A DNA stretch of 64,000 bases, taken from the sequence record PZ379075.1; one strand, 5' to 3'. This DNA comes from a phage. The position numbers and the translations under genes are program-made. This document shows, in pieces, positions 920 through 41,853 of the stretch. A model generated the notes under the pieces. That model had not been told where the DNA came from. It was given only the letters and a program-made list of their open reading frames with translations, and did no database searches. Every line of letters starts with the position of its first letter. The first letter of the stretch is position 1.

Positions 920-1174
920 ATGAAAGTTAACGAATTGAACAAAACTATCAAGACTGTGAAACTCCACACTCTGAAGAAGGGCGATACCTTCCGGCTGGAA
1001 GAGAACGGTCCAATTCATATGGTCTGTACTGCGGCATCTACTAATTGGGTAGAAGTTGCACGAGATCGAGTCGTGTGTGTCAGACTGGAAGATGGACACT
1101 TAAGTGGCCCCGTTGAGGGCATCTCTGTTATTCCTGTTAAGGTTGAAGCTAACGTTATTAAGGATTCTAAATGA
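920..1174 (+). CDS. small hypothetical protein, paralog 1 of a 4-gene tandem array
   Basis: 84 aa; shares with the next three ORFs the pattern L..L..G..F ... RL.DG ... V.PV; start and stop codons overlap the neighbours. Confidence 0.6.
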   Translation: MKVNELNKTIKTVKLHTLKKGDTFRLEENGPIHMVCTAASTNWVEVARDRVVCVRLEDGHLSGPVEGISVIPVKVEANVIKDSK

Positions 1175-1422
1175 AGATTACCCACAAGAAAGAAGAAGTG
1201 ACCACGATTGATCTCAACTCCCTCCCCAGCGGAGCAGTGTTTAAATTCCCTGAGAGTGCTACTCTCTATGTTAAAGGGTCTGTGTCTGAAAGTCCTAATG
1301 TAACCGTTAACTCTGATCGAACAATTACTCTTCGTCTATCCGATGGTAACGTAACAGCACCTTCTATCTGGTGCCGAGTTGTTCCTGTATCAGCAGAACT
1401 TTTGGTGGATAATACGCAATGA
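1171..1422 (+). CDS. small hypothetical protein, paralog 2
   Basis: 83 aa; ATGA overlap with upstream gene; conserved RLSDG and VVPV motifs. Confidence 0.6.
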   Translation: MKITHKKEEVTTIDLNSLPSGAVFKFPESATLYVKGSVSESPNVTVNSDRTITLRLSDGNVTAPSIWCRVVPVSAELLVDNTQ

Positions 1423-20994: not shown

Positions 20995-21176
20995 AGTGCT
21001 CTAAATGTGAAGGAACAAACCTTCATTTAAGTAACAAGGTTATCAGAGAGCTTGCTAAAGGCTCTCCAACCAAAGGGAAGAACAAACGATTTACTAACGT
21101 CAGGGTTTATACAGCAATCTGTAAAGACTGCTTAACTACTGAGTGTCATTACGAAGAAATTGGAGAGCGTAAATGA
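20979..21176 (+). CDS. small zinc-ribbon protein
   Basis: 65 aa; CSKCEG...CKDC. Confidence 0.4.
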   Translation: MDIVVKCSKCEGTNLHLSNKVIRELAKGSPTKGKNKRFTNVRVYTAICKDCLTTECHYEEIGERK

Positions 21177-21910
21177 GTCGTCGTCAATCACGGAAAGAAT
21201 CACGGAAAGACCTTCGTCGGGAAGCACTTGTTACTCGTAAAGGTAAGCGAGAGTATGAAGAGGTGGTTTTAGCAAAGCCTGTAGTCCCTCAGAACCAGTT
21301 TCAGTCTGAGCTACTCAATGCTATTAAGACTAAACAAGTTGTGTTCACAGACGCTCCTGCGGGCTGTGGTAAGACCTTTGTAATCACTTCCACAGTTATT
21401 GATGCACTGAAGAGCGGTAAGATTCAGAAGATCATTCTGAGTCGCCCTTCGGTTGGCATGGGCAACTCTCTTGGGTTACTTCCGGGAGGAATGCGTGAGA
21501 AGTTTGAACCATACCTGATGCCTATCATTGATGTTATTACTCAGCGATATGGTAAGGGATTCTATGAATGCCAAATCGGAAATGGTAACATTGAGTTTGT
21601 ACCTCTGGAATATCTCCGTGGTCGTTCTTTCAATGATGCTATTGTTATTGTTGATGAGTTCCAGAACACAACTAAGGATGAAGCCTTCTCCATCATGACT
21701 CGATTGGGAGAAACCTCTCAATTGTTCTGTATGGGTGATACAAACCAGCATGATATGCGTGGTCGCGAGAGTGGTCTAACTTGGGCTACTAACTTTATTG
21801 ATGAACACGATCTGTATGAGTTTGCTGAGATTGTAGATGGTGAATCAGATGATATTGTTCGTTCTGGTTTCTGTAAGGCGATTGTTAAAGCAATGGAAAA
21901 GAAAGCTTAA
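21173..21910 (+). CDS. phoH: PhoH-like ATPase
   Basis: Walker A in context FTDAPAGCGKTFV and overall PhoH-like layout; 245 aa. Confidence 0.7.
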   Translation: MSRRQSRKESRKDLRREALVTRKGKREYEEVVLAKPVVPQNQFQSELLNAIKTKQVVFTDAPAGCGKTFVITSTVIDALKSGKIQKIILSRPSVGMGNSLGLLPGGMREKFEPYLMPIIDVITQRYGKGFYECQIGNGNIEFVPLEYLRGRSFNDAIVIVDEFQNTTKDEAFSIMTRLGETSQLFCMGDTNQHDMRGRESGLTWATNFIDEHDLYEFAEIVDGESDDIVRSGFCKAIVKAMEKKA

Positions 21911-21919
21911 ACAGTAACT

Positions 21920-21946
21920 TATAATGTATACTCCTTAGTGTACACT
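21920..21946 (+). promoter_or_regulatory. promoter-like -10 element followed by a 10-bp perfect palindrome
   Basis: TATAAT at 21920-21925, then AGTGTACACT (perfect palindrome) at 21937-21946, then AAGGAG and ATG 21967. Confidence 0.3.
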
Positions 21947-21966: not shown

Positions 21967-22281
21967 ATGGCAGATCATGTAGGAAAGAGAGATTATGCAC
22001 AAGAAAGACGTACCGCAATTGCCCGTGGTGAAACAGGCGTTGGGAGCAAGAGCGGAGATGCTCAGCGCCACCGTGCACGTCGCATCGTTGAAAAGCGCGA
22101 TGGAAAAGCTGCTGTCAGAGGTAAAGACGTTGGACACAAACGAGCTGTCAAGTCTGGAGGCTCTAATGCGTCAAGCAACTTACGTGTTGAATCAGTCAGC
22201 TCAAACCGTTCAAACGGCGGCAAAAGTGGTGATCGAGCTGGAAAAGCAGCTGGAGCACGCAAAGGAGCTTTAAGCTCATAA
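21967..22281 (+). CDS. hypothetical basic Gly/Lys/Arg-rich protein (frame ambiguous)
   Basis: 104-aa ORF with strong AAGGAG RBS; a second ORF (21995-22273, 92 aa, helical composition) is open in another frame, so the true coding frame is uncertain. Confidence 0.35.
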   Translation: MADHVGKRDYAQERRTAIARGETGVGSKSGDAQRHRARRIVEKRDGKAAVRGKDVGHKRAVKSGGSNASSNLRVESVSSNRSNGGKSGDRAGKAAGARKGALSS

Positions 22282-22291
22282 AGAGGTTATA

Positions 22292-22585
22292 GTGTCAGCA
22301 GAAACAAAAAGATGTACAATTCACACTTATTGTAAATTCTGTAAAGCAGAGGGTGTAAAAAGAGTTGCAACTTTAATGACCAAGTATTCTCCAAGTAGAG
22401 GATACAGGGACCACTATAAGCACTACTCTTGTAGTGATCACTCCTATCTATTAGAAGATACAGACCCGAATAGAACAAGGAGAGAGCATAACATTGACCT
22501 GAGAGCTACTCTCAAGGAAATGAAAAATAACTCTCGAAACAACCATTACACTGAAGCTGACTATCAAACTTGGCTTCGTCTCTAG
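22292..22585 (+). CDS. hypothetical Cys/His-rich protein
   Basis: 97-aa ORF, GTG start. Confidence 0.4.
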   Translation: MSAETKRCTIHTYCKFCKAEGVKRVATLMTKYSPSRGYRDHYKHYSCSDHSYLLEDTDPNRTRREHNIDLRATLKEMKNNSRNNHYTEADYQTWLRL

Positions 22586-22587
22586 AA

Positions 22588-22620
22588 CAAAGGCTGCCTA
22601 ATCAGGTGGCCTTTTCTTTT
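22588..22620 (+). terminator. intrinsic terminator
   Basis: aaaggctgcc-taatca-ggtggccttt (10-bp stem with two G-U pairs) followed by TCTTTTAT. Confidence 0.45.
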
Positions 22621-22654
22621 ATATAAACCAAATTAAACTTCTTAGGTAATAAAT

Positions 22655-22909
22655 ATGTCTATTGTAAAAATCGTAAATATCATTGATGTAACTCGTACCG
22701 GTAAAACTATCAGTTGGAAATTCACCAATAAGCATAGAGGTTCAGAGAACATCATTCGTTCTATGATTCAACAAAACCCAAATACAGCTCGCACTAACGT
22801 ACTCCTTCGAGGAGCTGATGGAAAATTTATCTCTTATAAGAATAAGAACGTAGAAAAATCTTTCCGTGTTGCAGTAGAAAATCTCATCCCATTCCCTAAA
22901 GGAGTTTAA
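22655..22909 (+). CDS. small hypothetical protein, paralog 1 of a pair
   Basis: 84 aa; shares TART.V.LR...GKFISY...PFP.G with the next ORF. Confidence 0.55.
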   Translation: MSIVKIVNIIDVTRTGKTISWKFTNKHRGSENIIRSMIQQNPNTARTNVLLRGADGKFISYKNKNVEKSFRVAVENLIPFPKGV

Positions 22910-22910
22910 T

Positions 22911-23195
22911 ATGAATAAGTTAGCTATGGTTCAAATTCGGGACACATACCCTAACCGCCCGGAGCAGAAACCGCGTACTTGGTCTTATCTGTTAGCTGAA
23001 AGTAAGACTATTGACAAATACGCTGTAGGGATTGATGCTATTCCAACTAGTATCACATTGCTCCCTCACAAAACAGCCAGAACCCATGTGATGTTACGTG
23101 ATAGCAAAGGTAAGTTTATCTCTTATCGTGATTCACGAATCAATAATGAGATTAAATCTGCTATGGAATTTTTGATGCCATTCCCAAGAGGTTGA
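22911..23195 (+). CDS. small hypothetical protein, paralog 2 of a pair
   Basis: 94 aa; same motif set. Confidence 0.55.
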   Translation: MNKLAMVQIRDTYPNRPEQKPRTWSYLLAESKTIDKYAVGIDAIPTSITLLPHKTARTHVMLRDSKGKFISYRDSRINNEIKSAMEFLMPFPRG

Positions 23196-23198
23196 GTG

Positions 23199-23357
23199 AT
23201 GAAAGAATACATTTACGTAGGACAGCGCTGGTTCGGCGATGAATGGGAAGGCGGATACAGCGTTGTGAAAGCTTTTAAGTCGGAAGAAGATGCCAAGTCA
23301 TGGGTCTTAAAAGACGATGTTGGCGAGAGAACTTACATTGAAGTAGAGGTGGAGTAG
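23199..23357 (+). CDS. possible small ORF (52 aa)
   Basis: ATG with AGAGG RBS filling a gap. Confidence 0.35.
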   Translation: MKEYIYVGQRWFGDEWEGGYSVVKAFKSEEDAKSWVLKDDVGERTYIEVEVE

Positions 23358-23358
23358 G

Positions 23359-23781
23359 ATGCCATTACCAGCTAGATATCCAAACCGTTTCTTAGTTCTC
23401 AAGTGGGATGATATCGAAATGAATCTCACTGAACATGAACTGGATTTGTTCCATGAATTATTATCAGAAATTCGCTCTGGTATTCCTGAACGTCAGTATG
23501 TGGTTATCAGTGATAAACACCCTCAAGAGTTTGAAGAGGCTTGGGGTATGAAGCTGGCTTATATTCAGAGAGCTATTCAAGAAAGAGAAGAAGTTGCCAA
23601 TCAGAGGGTTGTGGCTCATTTAGTACGAGAGCAACCTCGTGAAGCTAGGGCTAACCATGCACCACCTCCACCCCCTCCTTGGACAGTTGTCAACGGGACG
23701 GTTAGGGCTTATAGTGATGAAGCTACCATGTTGAATGTAGTAGAAGATAACCAAGCCTTTACAGATTTACTTTACCAATAA
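23359..23781 (+). CDS. hypothetical protein
   Basis: 140-aa ORF; proline run PPPPPP. Confidence 0.5.
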   Translation: MPLPARYPNRFLVLKWDDIEMNLTEHELDLFHELLSEIRSGIPERQYVVISDKHPQEFEEAWGMKLAYIQRAIQEREEVANQRVVAHLVREQPREARANHAPPPPPPWTVVNGTVRAYSDEATMLNVVEDNQAFTDLLYQ

Positions 23782-23797: not shown

Positions 23798-25642
23798 GTG
23801 AGCAACCCGGACGCTCTTCCATTTTTGACAGAGATGACTGTCGCTGATATAATCTCTAAGCAAGCAAAGCACGGAGTGAGTTTCAACCGAAGAAATGCTC
23901 GGTGGTATGTTCACCTCCTTAAAGAGATTATTGTTAATATTGACAGAGAGTTGATTCCTCTCTTACCTAAGATGAGATTAGATGGCTCTACTTACATGAA
24001 GCCATTTAAGAAGTCTGGAGCTTTACAGAAGTGGCCTCAAGCCTATTGTGATAGGGTTGGGCTGAAAAGAGAAGATATTGGTGGAGCTTTCACCTGCGTC
24101 GAATACGTAGACTTTGACCCATCGAAAGATGCACGAGTTAAAGAAGCTCTTATGGATGAGGGTTTTCTTCCTCCAGAGTTTAACGTATCTAAGAAGCCTT
24201 GGAATACTTTCGAAATTAAGAAAGATATGCGAAAGTATGGAACATACCAAGCATGGTATACTGCTTGGATGCGAGGTAATGCTAAGCAAAAGCAGACAGC
24301 CGAGATGGTTGACGCTGATATTAAGAAGTTCTTAGAAAAGCATTTCAGGTTTAAAACTAAGAACTATATGAAGGCTTACGTATTTGGTTTGGGATTAAAC
24401 CCGAATCGCCGTAATCCTGTAACGTTTGATGAGATTAAGAAAGCACTAGCCACATCAAACAAGTGGCCTACAGCTCCTACAAACCTCGAGGAGACTCTTG
24501 AAGAAGGGTTAGGGGGTGAGCTAGGGAGTGTCGGAAGTTTGCTTAAGAGACGCGTTGTAGCGGCTCACAGGCTAGGTCTTATCAGTGGACTCATAGCAAA
24601 GGAACGCGAAGATGGTAAACTTTCGGCAGAAGCTAACAGCTGCGCTACGCCGACTTTTCGATTCAAACATCGTATCGTGGTTAATATTCCCTCCCGTGGT
24701 CTGTTTGGTCACGAGTGTCGCAGTTTGTTTGAGTCTGACTATAACTCAGACAGTGATCACTCTCGTCCTTTCGTTATTACTAACGTTGTTCCTGATGGTT
24801 GTTATATACGAAAAGGTACTAACGTAATTTACGAGAAAGGTAAGCCGGGGAAGAAAGATAAACCTATAGGTGCTTACAAATATTACATACCCGCTGGTAA
24901 AGAAGTATTCTTAGGGTATGATGGTTCTGGACTTGAACTTCGTATGCTCGCTCACTACCTCATTAAAGAGTGTAGGGATATGCTTGCTGAGGCAATTGAA
25001 GAGAACAACCCAGCTAAGAAAGCTCTGGCAGAACGTGGTTTAGCTTCTGCTATTATGTATCGTGATATTCTCCTTGAAGGTGATATCCACTCCCACAACC
25101 AGAAACTTGCTGGTCTTCCTACTCGTGACAACGCTAAGACGTTTATCTACGCATTCAACTATGGTGCTGGTGATGCTAAGCTTGGTTCAATTGTAGGTGG
25201 TGGGGCTGACGAAGGTTCAGTGATGCGAGCACGTTTCTTAGCAGAGAACCCATGTATTGCAATCCTCATTGATCGTATGACAGAGAAAGCTGCTCAAGGA
25301 TACTTGATTGGAGTTGATGGTCGTAAGATTACAATGAGACGGGATGCCACTGGTAAGGTTATGGTTCATAAAGCCCTTAACACACTCCTGCAATGTGCTG
25401 GTGCTGTTGTTATGAAATATGCTATGATGTTCCTTAACAAGTGGATTGAGAAAGATAAGGTTCGTTGTGCTAAGGTAATTGATATGCACGATGAAGGTCA
25501 ATTCTCAGTAAACCGTAATGATGTACAGAAACTCAAAGAGCACACCGAGCTTTGTGTTAAGAAAGCTGGCGAGTATCTGAATATGGAATGTCCTCTGGCA
25601 TCTGATTGTCAGATTGGACTTAACTGGATGCATACACACTAA
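23798..25642 (+). CDS. DNA polymerase, family A (polymerase domain only)
   Basis: Motif A DGSGLELR, motif B RDNAKTFIYAFNYGAGDAKLG, motif C VIDMHDEG; 614 aa; no exonuclease domain in this ORF. Confidence 0.8.
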   Translation: MSNPDALPFLTEMTVADIISKQAKHGVSFNRRNARWYVHLLKEIIVNIDRELIPLLPKMRLDGSTYMKPFKKSGALQKWPQAYCDRVGLKREDIGGAFTCVEYVDFDPSKDARVKEALMDEGFLPPEFNVSKKPWNTFEIKKDMRKYGTYQAWYTAWMRGNAKQKQTAEMVDADIKKFLEKHFRFKTKNYMKAYVFGLGLNPNRRNPVTFDEIKKALATSNKWPTAPTNLEETLEEGLGGELGSVGSLLKRRVVAAHRLGLISGLIAKEREDGKLSAEANSCATPTFRFKHRIVVNIPSRGLFGHECRSLFESDYNSDSDHSRPFVITNVVPDGCYIRKGTNVIYEKGKPGKKDKPIGAYKYYIPAGKEVFLGYDGSGLELRMLAHYLIKECRDMLAEAIEENNPAKKALAERGLASAIMYRDILLEGDIHSHNQKLAGLPTRDNAKTFIYAFNYGAGDAKLGSIVGGGADEGSVMRARFLAENPCIAILIDRMTEKAAQGYLIGVDGRKITMRRDATGKVMVHKALNTLLQCAGAVVMKYAMMFLNKWIEKDKVRCAKVIDMHDEGQFSVNRNDVQKLKEHTELCVKKAGEYLNMECPLASDCQIGLNWMHTH

Positions 25643-38083: not shown

Positions 38084-38150
38084 AACGTCTCCTTTTATAA
38101 ATAAAAATGTCCTACCCCCTATATACATTATAGAAGGCAGGACTTAGGTC

Positions 38151-39819: not shown

Positions 39820-40788
39820 TTAAGTACTAGCCAACCCACCGATTACACCCCCAGCTAATGCACCCCAAGGTCCAAAGGAAGAGCCACCTGCTGCACCACT
39901 CATAGCTCCACCAAGGAAACCACCTTTGCCACCAGATGTTTTAGTAGTTGTAGTTTGTCCGAGAGCACCGTTAAGTACACCTGCTGCACCGAGTTGGTTA
40001 TTGATATCTTGCCATCCCCAATTAGCTGCGTTCTGAGCATTCTGGTAGGCATTATCATATTCATTCTGTTGTTGCTGTTGTTGCTGCAACCCTGCATTCC
40101 ATTGATTCATTATTTGCTGTTGAGACAAATTAGCACCCTGCTGACCTAGGTTAGAAAGGTTAGAACCAATATTAGAAAGACCAGAGAGAGCAGCTGCCTG
40201 ATTCTGTCTATTACCAGAGAGGATGCTTTCAGCTTGGCTGATAGCCGAGTTATATGCACTATTGGTAATATCTGTTGCTTGCCCTTGCATCTGATTCAGA
40301 GCATCACCTTGGGCAAAAGATTTAGCCATACGAGCACCTGAACCCTGCTGACCAGCATACTGTTGAGCTAACTGAGGAAGAGCATTACGTGCCAAGTTCT
40401 GTTGAACCTGTTCATTATTAGCTGTAATGGCTGCTTGCACAGCGTCATCATCATACAGTTGACCAGCGAGAGCACCAATCTGTTCTCCAGTAATCCCACC
40501 TTGTCCAGAGAGGCTCTGATAGCCTTTATAGGCATTATCCAGATACCCTAACCCTTGACCTGCTGCATCCATGTATTGCTGTGAGAGAGTGCCCAAAGCG
40601 CCAGATTGTGCTAGGTTATTAAGTGCCTCTGTCTGATTGTTATTAAACCCTACATTGTCACGATAGACATAATCCCCTGAACTAGTATTACCAATCTGTT
40701 GGTTAAGCTGGTCAATATACTGTTGAATGTATTCAGGGCGAATCATTTGGGAAGTAGTTTTACTACCCCCGCCTCCGAAAAGTCCCAT
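39820..40788 (-). CDS. Q/N-rich low-complexity virion protein, paralog 1 (C-terminal glycine zipper)
   Basis: 322 aa; N-terminal MGLFGGGG, QQQQQQ run, NQWNAG...WGWQDINNQLG shared with 40801-41853; C-terminal GGFLGGAMSGAAGG. Confidence 0.5.
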   Translation of the reverse strand: MGLFGGGGSKTTSQMIRPEYIQQYIDQLNQQIGNTSSGDYVYRDNVGFNNNQTEALNNLAQSGALGTLSQQYMDAAGQGLGYLDNAYKGYQSLSGQGGITGEQIGALAGQLYDDDAVQAAITANNEQVQQNLARNALPQLAQQYAGQQGSGARMAKSFAQGDALNQMQGQATDITNSAYNSAISQAESILSGNRQNQAAALSGLSNIGSNLSNLGQQGANLSQQQIMNQWNAGLQQQQQQQNEYDNAYQNAQNAANWGWQDINNQLGAAGVLNGALGQTTTTKTSGGKGGFLGGAMSGAAGGSSFGPWGALAGGVIGGLAST

Positions 40789-40800
40789 ATCAAATCTCCT

Positions 40801-41853
40801 TTAGTTTGCTCCAAATGCCCCTAAGACACCACCTAAGATATTACTACCTGCTGTGGATAACCAGTTAGACTGACCTCTCTGTTGAGAAAGATTAGAACCA
40901 CCAATCATAGGACCAGCCATTCCAGATTGCCCACCTGAGTTGTTATAGGAACTCCAAGCATTCTGAGTCTGTTGATTAGGAGAGAAAGCACCCATACGAC
41001 CTGCAATACCTAATCCAGTGATACCAGCACCTAGGAGCTGTTGTCCAGTATTAACCCCCGGAGCAGCATTCTTAATCGTGTACCCAGCCATTGGGCTTAC
41101 ACTATTTAATACATTAAGTTGGTTGTTAAGCTGATTCCACCCATACTGTTGAGAGCCAATAGCGTTCTGCCAATTAATATCAGCTTGAGCTTGGGCTTGT
41201 TGCTGTTGTAGATTACCAGCCATGAGTTGATTCTGGATAGCTTGTTGAGTTGCCTGAACACCTTGAGCACCAAGATTGAGATTCTGTCCAGCCAATCCTG
41301 ACTGAGCACCAAGTAAGCCCCTCTGGAAGTTTTGGTCTTGTTGAAGAGCACTGATTCCCATATTCTTGCCACTGATAGTACGAGCTAAGTTTGTATTAGC
41401 ACTGTTCAGAGCAGCACCTTGAGCAGCAGCTCTACGGAGAGAGCCTGAATCAGAACCATTTCCGAGGGATACATTGGAAGCTGCCTTACTAGTCGCTTGA
41501 GCAAGAGCTGAGTTATTCAATCCTTTACTAAAGTTATTAACACCATCAGCAGTTAGACCACCACCATTGACAATATTCTGATACTGCTGTGCAAGAGAAT
41601 TTAATTGGTCCAACCCTTGCTGTGTACGAGGCGTGTACATATCAGCCAATTGCTTCTGAGTAGTAGAAGCTGCTAAGTTGTTCAGAGCACCCTGTTGGTT
41701 GCCATTAAACCCAGCCAGTTGTTGGGAGATGAATCCCGGATCGTTGTTCTGCATATTCTGAGCATTAGCAACAATCTGCTTCAGCAGGGCATCAACCTGA
41801 GAGGAAGGGGCCACTGTGGTTTTGCTAGAAGCTGATTTTCCAAATAAAGACAT
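40801..41853 (-). CDS. Q/N-rich low-complexity virion protein, paralog 2
   Basis: 350 aa; N-terminal MSLFGK, NLQQQQAQAQADINWQNA...YGWNQLNNQLN. Confidence 0.5.
   Translation of the reverse strand: MSLFGKSASSKTTVAPSSQVDALLKQIVANAQNMQNNDPGFISQQLAGFNGNQQGALNNLAASTTQKQLADMYTPRTQQGLDQLNSLAQQYQNIVNGGGLTADGVNNFSKGLNNSALAQATSKAASNVSLGNGSDSGSLRRAAAQGAALNSANTNLARTISGKNMGISALQQDQNFQRGLLGAQSGLAGQNLNLGAQGVQATQQAIQNQLMAGNLQQQQAQAQADINWQNAIGSQQYGWNQLNNQLNVLNSVSPMAGYTIKNAAPGVNTGQQLLGAGITGLGIAGRMGAFSPNQQTQNAWSSYNNSGGQSGMAGPMIGGSNLSQQRGQSNWLSTAGSNILGGVLGAFGAN

What the first reader, a model, noticed from the sequence alone, without database searches (positions are those of the whole stretch)
22588..23195. Terminator-delimited pair of paralogous small genes
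After a terminator at 22588-22620, two adjacent ORFs (84 and 94 aa) share TART.V.LR...GKFISY...PFP.G. This is a third case of local gene duplication among small early proteins, suggesting ongoing accordion-like evolution in this module.
Basis: seen in the sequence. Interest (0 to 1): 0.4.

Follow-up and report, generated by a model that had tools for sequence, protein, structure and literature searches.

The report
Old tandem paralogues before phage polymerase
Two neighbouring small genes of a phiEco32-like (Kuravirus) coliphage are real but ancient duplicates of unknown function, already present in about a hundred published phage genomes, and show no sign of ongoing copy-number change.

Summary
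ORF1 (22655-22909, 84 aa) and ORF2 (22911-23195, 94 aa) are homologous: BLASTP E 2e-14, 35% identity over the full length, and both match phrog_6814 end to end. A convincing intrinsic terminator lies at 22589-22623.

The window is a Kuravirus, and the genes are the phiEco32 phi32_57/phi32_56 homologues. By homology they are middle-class genes, not early ones. The terminator lies only upstream, and comparative data tie it to the preceding gp58-like gene. The next comparable site on this strand is 6 kb further on.

The duplication is ancient. The two genes share only an 18-nt DNA stretch. 92 of 99 related genomes carry the pair, and no locus has more than two copies. Downstream copies from different lineages never group together in the tree. 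This argues against an ongoing accordion.

The family comprises about 83 clusters of stand-alone 62-107 aa proteins, found only in phiEco32-like phages. It always sits between the gp58-like gene and the family-A DNA polymerase. It has no Pfam or PDB relative. The predicted fold is a small beta-beta-alpha-beta-beta-alpha domain. The C-terminal half is invariant (TARTNV.LR..GKFISY...PFP). In ORF1 the N-terminal segment is a mosaic, hypervariable cassette.

Function is unknown. My best guess is a small partner-binding accessory protein of the replication module.

The parts
21922..21930 (+). TAATGTATA motif, the consensus of promoters read by the phage sigma factor gp36. It sits upstream of the gp58 homologue, equivalent to the phiEco32 promoter in front of gene 58.
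   Evidence: Exact match. PMC4331800 lists this motif upstream of phiEco32 gene 58 among the experimentally supported phage promoters.
21967..22281 (+). gp58 homologue (104 aa). A very conserved basic, glycine-rich protein that precedes the terminator in all related phages.
   Evidence: phrog_4590, E 7e-41. 66-93% identity across distant loci. Also found upstream of the polymerase in SeKF_80 (E 3e-40) and DL54 (E 5e-30).
22292..22585 (+). SU10_055-like Cys-rich ORF (97 aa), inserted between the gp58 homologue and the terminator. It is lineage-specific.
   Evidence: phrog_9585, E 6e-45. Among the loci compared it is present only in WFI101126. It is absent at this position in phiEco32. PMC4281155 calls SU10 gp55 unique among C3 phages.
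22589..22623 (+). Intrinsic terminator: an 11-bp G+C-rich stem, a 4-nt loop and a T-rich tail. It probably terminates or attenuates the gp58 transcript, and read-through would feed the genes downstream.
   Evidence: Annotated as a terminator in WFI101126 and SU7. Relative to phiEco32 it shows a compensatory C-G to T-A change plus an A-T to G-T change.
22655..22909 (+). ORF1, the phi32_57 homologue (84 aa, pI 10.8). Upstream paralogue, phrog_6814.
   Evidence: AF2 model pLDDT 81, topology beta-beta-alpha-beta-(beta)-alpha. Omega 0.11-0.40.
22666..22785 (+). Hypervariable, mosaic cassette inside ORF1 (about codons 5-43, covering strand 2 and helix 1).
   Evidence: 42-68% nt identity against more than 90% in the flanks, in comparisons with otherwise near-identical Kuraviruses. 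Residues 12-43 are 23-53% identical with dN 0.5-1.2 and dS saturated. Residues 44-84 are 88-100% identical with omega 0.03-0.11. Clusters P0032-P0036 join an SU7-type N-half to a Kuravirus-type C-half.
22899..22904 (+). Shine-Dalgarno AAGGAG for ORF2, embedded in the last codons (K-G-V) of ORF1. The stop codon and the next start are 1 nt apart.
   Evidence: Read from the sequence.
22911..23195 (+). ORF2, the phi32_56 homologue (94 aa, pI 10.0). Downstream paralogue, phrog_6814.
   Evidence: AF2 model pLDDT 74 with the same topology. Omega 0.09-0.30.
23199..23357 (+). phi32_55 homologue (52 aa). Its Shine-Dalgarno AAGAGG (23186-23191) lies in the last codons of ORF2.
   Evidence: phrog_17007, E 1e-38. 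Annotation. Missing in single-copy phages and in L012 and L025.
23359..23781 (+). phi32_54 homologue (140 aa), the last small gene before the polymerase. It holds a second variable cassette at about 23626-23745.
   Evidence: phrog_11427, E 2e-81. Sliding-window identity.
23798..25642 (+). Family-A DNA polymerase without exonuclease domains. It is the conserved downstream anchor of the locus.
   Evidence: PF00476 lies downstream of the family gene in the distant loci L033 and L036-L039.

Best explanation
What it is. ORF1 and ORF2 are the phi32_57 and phi32_56 homologues of a Kuravirus. They are two anciently diverged tandem members of one small protein family (phrog_6814) that is confined to phiEco32-like lytic phages.

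Expression. They are middle-class genes at the head of a tightly packed, probably translationally coupled run: ORF1, ORF2, gp55, gp54, DNA polymerase. This run lies just behind a conserved intrinsic terminator. That terminator ends the short, promoter-proximal gp58 transcription unit. The pair is therefore most likely expressed by read-through, that is, by attenuation (inferred).

The proteins. Each is a stand-alone alpha+beta domain of about 85-95 aa. The C-terminal half is nearly invariant: a beta-hairpin TARTNV.LR..GKFISY, a helix, and a PFP tail. The N-terminal half is variable. In ORF1 it is exchanged between phages as a cassette by recombination.

Likely function (inference, about one chance in three). 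They are non-enzymatic accessory proteins of the replication module. The invariant polar and basic hairpin would bind a conserved macromolecule, either nucleic acid or a component of the polymerase machinery. The variable half would modulate specificity. Where two copies exist they may act together, for example as a heterodimer.
For: Identity and homology.

Family limits:
- 37 and 50 close clusters.
- Only 27 further small clusters among 1.84e9 representative proteins.
- 83 clusters in the 5.8e9-protein database, all 62-107 aa and stand-alone.
- No match to the motif in 185,579 bacterial and archaeal genomes.

Real genes: omega 0.09-0.40; confident, concordant AF2 models.

Middle class: PMC4281155 and PMC8948821.

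Locus structure:
- Terminator.
- Promoter motif at 21922.
- No promoter-like site between the terminator and ORF1.
- 1-3 nt gene spacers with Shine-Dalgarno sites inside the preceding coding sequence.
- Conserved order gp58-like, hairpin, family gene(s), 0-3 small ORFs, DNA_pol_A in Kuravirus, Suseptimavirus, Nieuwekanaalvirus and the distant uncultured phages examined. In two of these (L034, L035) the polymerase appears only as unannotated ORFs or a weak 95-aa Pfam hit.

Age of the duplication.

Modular conservation.

Hairpin chemistry: the invariant or near-invariant residues are T44, A45, R46, T47, G56, F58 and S60. Positions 52, 57 and 62 are almost always basic (R or K).
Against: No functional evidence of any kind exists.
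- Net charge is not conserved: pI runs from 4.6 to 10.8 across the family. This argues against general nucleic-acid binding by the whole protein.
- The ORF1 cassette type is uncoupled from the polymerase allele. L020 and L021 have the same ORF1, but their polymerases are 100% and 87% identical to the window's. The variable half therefore does not co-evolve with the polymerase.
- In T7 (my own knowledge), small host-factor inhibitors such as gp2 and gp5.5 sit among the replication genes. Synteny with a polymerase is thus weak evidence for a replication role.
- Read-through of the terminator and translational coupling are inferred from sequence only.
Confidence: 0.55

Rival explanations
1. Genomic accordion. 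The tandem copies reflect ongoing expansion and contraction of copy number by unequal recombination under selection.
For: - Copy number differs between lineages, 1 or 2.
- Two-copy states occur in at least five lineages with different partners: Kuravirus, Suseptimavirus, KBNP1711, L035 and L036.
- The window holds two further tandem paralogous pairs.
Against: - The paralogues share 35% of residues and only 18 nt of DNA.
- Pairs in other lineages are just as old: 42% identity over the full length in L036, and 51% over only the 47-aa C-terminal region in L035.
- No locus has more than two copies.
- 92 of 99 genomes share the two-copy state.
- In 300 bootstrap trees, the two copies of one phage group never formed a clade of their own.
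- Both copies are under purifying selection.
Confidence: 0.07
2. Small host-takeover or anti-defence inhibitors, in the manner of phi29 p56, T7 Gp2 or T4 Dmd. The invariant half would be the scaffold, and the hypervariable cassette would track a variable host target.
For: - ORF1 is the fastest-evolving gene of the neighbourhood and has a recombining cassette. PMC4281155 also notes that SU10 gp54 is only 66% identical to its phiEco32 counterpart.
- The cassette is uncoupled from the polymerase allele.
- Small size and absence from cellular genomes.
Against: - hhalign against phi29 p56 gives 1.5% probability.
- The window proteins are strongly basic (pI 10.8 and 10.0), whereas a DNA mimic would be acidic.
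- The family is core-like and strictly syntenic in every phiEco32-like lineage examined.
- The most conserved part is a polar surface hairpin, not the variable part.
Confidence: 0.25
3. The second copy was acquired by recombination with a divergent relative, not by duplication in situ. A homologous gene from another phage was inserted next to the resident one. This concerns origin only and is compatible with either functional reading.
For: - Downstream copies fall into at least three lineages (gp56 type, SU7_53 type, KBNP1711/P0089 type). They never form one clade (0 of 300 bootstraps) and each tends to group with different metagenomic sequences.
- Inter-genus mosaic ORF1 alleles show that recombination is active at this locus.
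- The neighbourhood is an insertion hotspot: the SU10_055-like ORF here, and HNH endonucleases in Bas86 and Bas89.
Against: - Proteins of 85 columns give weak trees, with clade supports of 0.5-0.8.
- One ancient duplication followed by fast divergence and losses would give the same picture.
- The L036 pair keeps similar N-termini (MNIVKIVQIRD and MGIVKKVQIRD), as expected for a local duplication.
Confidence: 0.3
4. The ORFs are not functional genes. They would be chance ORFs or decaying duplicates.
For: No known domain, and small size.
Against: - Conserved in 99 phage records and 83 protein clusters.
- Omega well below 1.
- DNA differs at synonymous sites while the protein motif is kept.
- Shine-Dalgarno sites are present.
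- Structure models are confident.
Confidence: 0.01

Closest known systems
phiEco32 phi32_57 and phi32_56 (PHROG family phrog_6814), hypothetical proteins of Kuravirus and other Gordonclarkvirinae
   Same: - Same position between the gp58 homologue and the DNA polymerase.
- ORF1 is 67% identical to phi32_57 and ORF2 is 91.5% identical to phi32_56.
- Proteins 100% identical to ORF1 or to ORF2 are deposited from other phages, for example EcP-vB, TH06, FS2B and MN03.
- Both ORFs match the whole PHROG profile.
   Different: Nothing essential. This phage carries one of at least six to eight allelic types of the ORF1 variable cassette. It also has an extra SU10_055-like ORF upstream of the terminator. 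The family's function has never been studied.
phi29 / VMY22 p56 (uracil-DNA glycosylase inhibitor) and other small phage inhibitors (T7 Gp2, T4 Dmd)
   Same: - Small alpha+beta domain built on a beta-sheet with one packing helix.
- These are the best-ranked small PDB matches for both models.
- They share a hairpin with a D-G-K turn.
- They are phage-encoded, and in phi29 the gene lies next to the replication genes.
   Different: - There is no detectable sequence relation (hhalign 1.5%).
- The window proteins are about 30-40 residues longer, with an extra helix and a PFP tail.
- They are basic rather than acidic.
- No UDG link is known for Kuraviruses.
Poxvirus-type genomic accordions (for example K3L amplification; from my own knowledge)
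   Same: Tandem copies of a small viral gene, with copy number differing between lineages.
   Different: Accordions involve recent, near-identical copies, arrays of variable length, and rapid collapse. Here the copies are 35% identical, number at most two, and are fixed across genera.
Leaky intrinsic terminators (attenuators) inside phage operons
   Same: - A G+C-rich hairpin plus a U-tract after a promoter-proximal gene.
- Essential genes, including the DNA polymerase, lie downstream with no recognisable promoter in between.
   Different: Termination efficiency and read-through have not been measured. In DL54 the equivalent hairpin lacks a U-tract and may serve only to stabilise the RNA.

Membership tests
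phrog_6814 (phi32_56/57 family) | Significant full-length match to the family profile | tested here: met
   ORF1: E 7.3e-39 over residues 1-84 against profile positions 1-86. ORF2: E 1.2e-36 over residues 1-94 against positions 1-85.
phrog_6814 (phi32_56/57 family) | Conserved position between the gp58-like gene and the family-A DNA polymerase | tested here: met
   The order is the same in the window and in all related loci examined.
phrog_6814 (phi32_56/57 family) | Signature motifs V.I.D, TARTNV.[LIF][RK]...G[KR]F[IV]S[YF] and L.PFP | tested here: met
   Both ORFs carry all three motifs. ORF2 has TARTHV.
Genomic accordion (recent tandem amplification) | Near-identical tandem copies that provide recombination substrates | tested here: not met
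   35% amino-acid identity. The longest similar DNA stretch is 18 nt at 89% identity.
Genomic accordion (recent tandem amplification) | Copy number varies among close relatives, with arrays of more than two | tested here: not met
   92 of 99 genomes have two copies and 7 have one. No locus has more than two.
Early gene class of phiEco32-like phages | Location in the sigma70-transcribed early cluster | tested here: not met
   The genes lie in the polymerase cluster, classed as middle in phiEco32 and SU10 (PMC8948821, PMC4281155). A gp36-type promoter motif lies upstream at 21922. Expression timing in this phage was not measured.
Rho-independent terminator | G+C-rich hairpin followed directly by a U-tract | tested here: met
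   11-bp stem with 5 G-C pairs, 4-nt loop, tail TCTTTTAT. MFE -16.3 kcal/mol, z -2.2.
Rho-independent terminator | Structure conserved through sequence change at the same position in relatives | tested here: met
   25 of 28 distinct loci pass the strict rule, against a background of 0.13 per kb. At least eight unrelated stem sequences occur. The window shows a compensatory C-G to T-A change relative to phiEco32.
Rho-independent terminator | Termination of transcripts in vivo or in vitro | not testable with these tools
   Needs 3'-end mapping such as Term-seq or in vitro transcription.
p56-type UDG inhibitors | Sequence or profile similarity to p56 | tested here: not met
   hhalign of the family profile against phi29 p56 gives 1.5% probability, with 10 aligned columns.
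p56-type UDG inhibitors | Acidic, DNA-mimicking surface | tested here: not met
   pI 10.8 (ORF1) and 10.0 (ORF2). The family ranges from 4.6 to 10.8.
p56-type UDG inhibitors | Same fold | tested here: inconclusive
p56-type UDG inhibitors | Binding and inhibition of uracil-DNA glycosylase | not testable with these tools
   Needs biochemistry.

The most novel reading that the evidence does not exclude
The family would be a new kind of modular phage protein. Its invariant TARTNV...GKFISY hairpin and PFP tail would dock on a conserved machine, either the exonuclease-less family-A polymerase complex or a conserved host factor. The N-terminal cassette, swapped between phages by recombination, would set specificity. 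Tandem paralogues would then broaden the range or form heterodimers. On this reading the locus is a small, portable host-interaction or anti-defence determinant embedded in the replication operon.
Probability: 0.15. Interest if true: 0.5.

Novelty: already known. Interest (0 to 1): 0.22.

Why it matters
As found, it matters little. It is a conserved pair of hypothetical genes that public records already hold and that PHROGs already places in one family.

Three by-products are modestly useful.
- They correct the picture of this module: the genes are middle class, the terminator belongs to the gp58 unit, and the duplication is old and stable.
- They define a phage-restricted family that always accompanies the exonuclease-less polymerase of phiEco32-like phages. 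That makes it a reasonable candidate for knock-out or pull-down work in a group used for phage therapy, such as ES17, SU10 and the myPSH phages.
- They show a sharply bounded recombining cassette inside an 84-aa protein, which is the kind of signature seen in host-interaction genes.

They also flag mis-annotations in GenBank, where these small proteins are labelled 'autotransporter adhesin' or 'Cas8 protein'.

Tried and rejected
Searches that gave nothing usable:
- Pfam, NCBIfam and PADLOC scans of both ORFs and of all 34 family members gave only scattered sub-threshold hits, such as CzcE, AbiEi and type IV Cas8.
- A profile search of PDB sequences gave nothing below E 0.05.
- BFVD returned only members of the family itself.
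- The afdb50 library was not available.
I replaced it with a degenerate DNA pattern and with the look-up of encoding contigs.
- tblastn with distant members (P0106, P0103) found no cultured phages beyond the same 99 records.
- A full-text literature search for the gene names and the PHROG number found nothing.
- A first bootstrap run with Biopython timed out. I redid it with my own neighbour-joining code.

Leads considered and rejected:
- Three long hits of the profile search (P0109, P0113, P0115) are repeat proteins whose scores are inflated by repetition. One of them, P0113, is built of repeated kinesin-motor segments (GKEFISYRDSKLTRLL). I judged all three spurious.
- A general DNA-binding role for the whole protein. 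Net charge is not conserved.
- A promoter between the terminator and ORF1. No consensus match was found.
- A DNA-level repeat as the explanation of the similarity. Synonymous sites differ throughout.
Full report
1. Source of the window

The 2 kb around the finding is 99.4% identical to Escherichia phages FS2B, MN03 and SkaterBoy_Bas90. It is 90-98% identical to ES17, myPSH2311, SU10, WFI101126 and others. All of these are Kuravirus, in the phiEco32-like Gordonclarkvirinae.

In phiEco32 numbering, the local genes on the + strand are:
- PhoH-like gp60 (21173-21910)
- the gp58 homologue (21967-22281)
- an SU10_055-like ORF (22292-22585)
- ORF1, the phi32_57 homologue (22655-22909)
- ORF2, the phi32_56 homologue (22911-23195)
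- the gp55 homologue (23199-23357)
- the gp54 homologue (23359-23781)
- the exonuclease-less family-A DNA polymerase gp53 (23798-25642)

These assignments rest. The minus strand holds only ORFs of 38 aa or fewer under the pair.

2. Checking the observation

- BLASTP aligns the C-terminal 40 residues at 50% identity and 75% positives, E 2e-14.
- In an all-against-all search of the 368 ORFs of at least 40 aa in the window, the pair scores E 6e-12. It is one of three paralogous pairs.
- The homology is not limited to the quoted motif. Family alignments run end to end at 35% identity, with a shared N-terminal M...V.I.D.
- Both proteins match the single family phrog_6814 over its whole length.
- The similarity is at protein level. 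The DNA of the conserved halves differs at most synonymous positions, and only 18 nt (GGAAAATTTATCTCTTAT) are alike.

The hairpin at 22589-22614 followed by TCTTTTAT has the anatomy of an intrinsic terminator.

3. The terminator belongs to the gene before it

I folded the 100-110 nt upstream of the first family gene in 28 distinct related loci.
- 25 loci have a hairpin of at least 7 bp with at least 4 G-C pairs, followed by at least 6 T in 8 nt, within 90 nt of the start codon. The background on the same strand is 0.13 such sites per kb.
- The other three loci have the hairpin with a weaker T-run.
- The stems differ completely between lineages. Examples are GGCTACCC/GGGTGGCC, GGGCTGCTAGAG/CTCTAGCGGCC, GGCTTCC/GGAAGCC and GGTTGCTCA/TGAGCAGCC. 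The structure, not the sequence, is what is kept.
- Relative to phiEco32, the window shows one compensatory C-G to T-A change and one A-T to G-T change.

The gene in front of the hairpin is nearly always the gp58 homologue. In some lineages an inserted ORF lies between the two: the SU10_055-like ORF in this window and in WFI101126, a small 83-94-aa ORF in L014, L016 and L039, and an HNH endonuclease in Bas89.

gp58 is a basic, glycine-rich protein of 104 aa that stays 66-93% identical where the family proteins have fallen to about 35%. The same gp58-like gene, again followed by a hairpin and a T-run, occurs upstream of the polymerase in the 7-11-like Salmonella phage SeKF_80, which lacks the family. 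In Pseudomonas phage DL54 the gp58-like gene is followed by a UUCG hairpin without a T-run.

An exact TAATGTATA lies at 21922-21930, upstream of the gp58 homologue. This is the consensus of gp36-dependent phiEco32 promoters, one of which precedes phiEco32 gene 58 (PMC4331800).

The simplest reading is a short unit of promoter, gp58 and terminator, with read-through feeding the genes behind it. That step is inferred. I found no promoter-like sequence between the terminator and ORF1.

The window has only three strict + strand terminator-like sites, at 22589, 29127 and 30784. The pair is therefore not 'terminator-delimited'. It opens a compact run with the following gaps:
- ORF1 to ORF2: 1 nt
- ORF2 to gp55: 3 nt
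- gp55 to gp54: 1 nt
- gp54 to the polymerase: 16 nt

The Shine-Dalgarno sequences for ORF2 (AAGGAG, 22899-22904) and for gp55 (AAGAGG, 23186-23191) lie in the last codons of the preceding gene.

4. Temporal class

In phiEco32 the cluster containing the DNA polymerase is the experimentally defined middle class. SU10 CDS 25-68, which include the two homologues (CDS 53 and 54), are assigned to it (PMC8948821, PMC4281155). 'Small early proteins' is therefore wrong by homology. Timing in this particular phage was not measured.

5. Copy number and age of the duplication

- tblastn finds the family in 99 phage records, all from Escherichia or Shigella.
- 92 of them have a full-length second copy. 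Seven have one copy; those identified are EP335, LAMP, Bas89, Bas92, Bas93 and Bas94.
- A family HMM run on six-frame translations of all fetched loci finds one or two copies. When there are two they are always adjacent, and there are never three.
- Distant uncultured relatives have one copy (L014, L016, L033, L034, L037, L038, L039) or two (L035, L036).

In a neighbour-joining analysis with 300 bootstraps:
- Upstream copies of Kuravirus, together with the single copies of the EP335 type, group with 0.61 support. Adding the Suseptimavirus upstream copies gives 0.56.
- Downstream copies fall into three separate lineages: the gp56 type, the SU7_53 type and the KBNP1711 type. They never form one clade.
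- The two copies of one phage group never formed a clade of their own.

Paralogues are as far from each other (31-42% identity) as from metagenomic members (29-41%). Pairs in other lineages are equally old. Both copies evolve under purifying selection, with omega 0.11-0.40 for ORF1 and 0.09-0.30 for ORF2.

This is an old, stable arrangement. The second slot has been gained, lost or replaced only on the scale of genera. I cannot say whether the second copy arose in situ or by recombination with a divergent relative.

6. What does change quickly

ORF1 is the most divergent gene of the neighbourhood. PMC4281155 also notes 66% identity between SU10 and phiEco32 for this gene.

The divergence is concentrated in a sharply bounded block at about 22666-22785.
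- This block is 42-68% identical at the nucleotide level, while the flanks are above 90%.
- Residues 12-43 are 23-53% identical, with dN 0.5-1.2 and dS saturated.
- Residues 44-84 are 88-100% identical, with omega 0.03-0.11.
- At least six to eight cassette types exist.
- Some alleles (P0032-P0036) join a Suseptimavirus-type N-half to a Kuravirus-type C-half.

High dS together with high dN, plus the sharp borders, point to exchange of old alleles by recombination rather than to point-mutational positive selection. Cassette type is independent of the polymerase allele. gp54 has a similar cassette at about 23626-23745.

7. The protein family

- A profile search of 1.84e9 representative proteins found only 27 further clusters, all 79-103 aa and matching over their full length. 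Three repeat proteins also scored, and I judged them spurious.
- A profile search of the 5.8e9-protein set gave 83 clusters, all 62-107 aa and stand-alone.
- The core motif is absent from 185,579 bacterial and archaeal genomes.
- No Pfam, NCBIfam, PADLOC or PDB sequence relative exists.

Conserved positions:
- Invariant: M1, T47, G56, S60, F80, P81.
- Near-invariant: D11, I38, T44, A45, R46, V49, F58, L77, P79.
- Positions 52, 57 and 62 are almost always K or R.

AlphaFold2 gives the same beta-beta-alpha-beta-(beta)-alpha domain for ORF1 (pLDDT 81, pTM 0.69) and ORF2 (pLDDT 74, pTM 0.63). The variable cassette covers strand 2 and helix 1. The invariant part covers strand 3, the G-K turn, strand 4, helix 2 and the PFP tail.

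An 89-aa ORF two genes upstream of the polymerase in SeKF_80 ends in FRTNVSVRDTKTGRFVKW. hhalign gives 77% probability over 22 columns. It may be a remote relative, but the evidence is marginal.

8. Genomic context across the family

The order is gp58-like gene, hairpin (sometimes preceded by an inserted ORF, see section 3), family gene or genes, 0-3 small ORFs, then the family-A polymerase. I found this order in the following:
- Kuravirus, Suseptimavirus and Nieuwekanaalvirus genomes
- the two IMG/VR contigs of 82 and 90 kb
- the seven contigs fetched for distant members

A polymerase of 610-615 aa follows in L033 and L036-L039. In L033 and L038 the family gene abuts it. In L034 and L035 the region after the family gene holds unannotated 253-269-aa and 455-457-aa ORFs, with only a weak 95-aa DNA_pol_A hit in L034, so the polymerase there is inferred rather than shown.

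The family is thus a core, syntenic part of the replication module of this phage group. From my own knowledge of T7, small host-factor inhibitors also sit among replication genes, so synteny alone does not settle the function.

9. Most likely mechanism, and how sure I am

Shown:
- two real, co-oriented, tightly packed paralogous genes of a phage-restricted family
- a conserved terminator upstream
- a conserved position before the polymerase
- an invariant polar and basic hairpin, and a variable N-half

Inferred:
- expression by read-through as part of the polymerase operon
- translational coupling
- a non-enzymatic, partner-binding role in which the invariant hairpin and PFP tail contact a conserved macromolecule

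I put roughly 0.35 on a replication-linked partner (nucleic acid or the polymerase machinery). I put 0.25 on a host-factor or anti-defence role. The rest is open. The accordion reading gets less than 0.1.

10. Novelty and verdict

Identical or near-identical proteins are already deposited as hypothetical proteins. Their paralogy is implicit in the PHROG grouping. Table S2 of PMC8948821 lists phi32_56 and phi32_57 as shared among the phiEco32 subgroup. Nothing has been published on their function.

The finding is a correct observation of an ordinary feature, with an over-reaching interpretation. Its residual interest lies in the strict association with the polymerase and in the recombining cassette.

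Noticed in passing
window 23825-23853 (+): A perfect sigma70 consensus promoter lies 27 nt inside the annotated DNA polymerase ORF: TTGACA, 17 nt, TATAAT, with an extended-10 TG. The -10 element is formed by the conserved V-A-D-I-I codons. The 29-nt sequence is identical in 11 related loci, but this exact sequence was not found in the more distant ones.
   Followed up: partly
window 21967-22281 (+); also L040 2261-2602 and L041 1037-1333: The gp58 homologue is far more conserved than its neighbours: 66-93% identity across distant phiEco32-like phages, E 3e-40 in 7-11-like SeKF_80 and E 5e-30 in LUZ24-like DL54. It always lies upstream of the polymerase. It has a GKDV[DG]H...SGGSN...NLR...NRS.GG motif, which gives only a sub-threshold HNH hit (18.2 bits against a cut-off of 21.4). 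SeKF_80 annotates it as 'cytidyltransferase'. Its function is unknown.
   Followed up: partly
window 22292-22585 (+): A Cys-rich 97-aa ORF (SU10_055-like, phrog_9585) sits between the gp58 homologue and the terminator. It is absent there in phiEco32 and most relatives. Bas89 has an HNH endonuclease at the same spot, and Bas86 has one just upstream of gp58. The spot is an insertion hotspot.
   Followed up: partly
window 23626-23745 (+), inside the gp54 homologue: A second sharply bounded variable cassette: 40-65% nt identity to some Kuraviruses against more than 90% in the flanks. It resembles the cassette in ORF1.
   Followed up: no
window 23199-23357 (+): The 52-aa gp55 homologue is missing from all single-copy phages. 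It is also missing from two two-copy contigs (L012, L025), so it is an independent presence/absence gene.
   Followed up: no
window 920-1174 and 1171-1422 (+); 39820-40788 and 40801-41853 (-): These are the two other tandem paralogous pairs in the window. The first is a pair of 84/83-aa proteins of phrog_7832 (28% identity, E 2e-10). The second is a pair of 321/349-aa proteins of phrog_4287, annotated 'DNA ejection protein' (30% identity, E 1e-10).
   Followed up: partly
window 38109-38143 (-): A long hairpin (15 pairs) followed by a T-run carries an exact TAATGTATA, the gp36-type promoter motif, in its loop region. A promoter motif is embedded in a terminator-like structure.
   Followed up: no
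GenBank records of relatives (for example ES17, DE5, CHD5UKE1, EC.W14-3, XT32, Ptacy1532): Genes in this 2-kb stretch are labelled 'autotransporter adhesin' in several records; in CHD5UKE1, EC.W14-3, EC.W8-1 and XT32 the label sits on the 84-aa ORF1 homologue, in PE006 on the ORF2 homologue. A gene in the same stretch is labelled 'Cas8 protein' in Ptacy1532. No search here supports either name, so they look like annotation artefacts.
   Followed up: partly
L040 3404-3673 (Salmonella phage SeKF_80): An 89-aa hypothetical protein two genes upstream of the polymerase ends in FRTNVSVRDTKTGRFVKW. This resembles the family's invariant hairpin (hhalign 77% over 22 columns), but the helix and PFP tail are missing. 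It may be a remote or truncated relative.
   Followed up: partly
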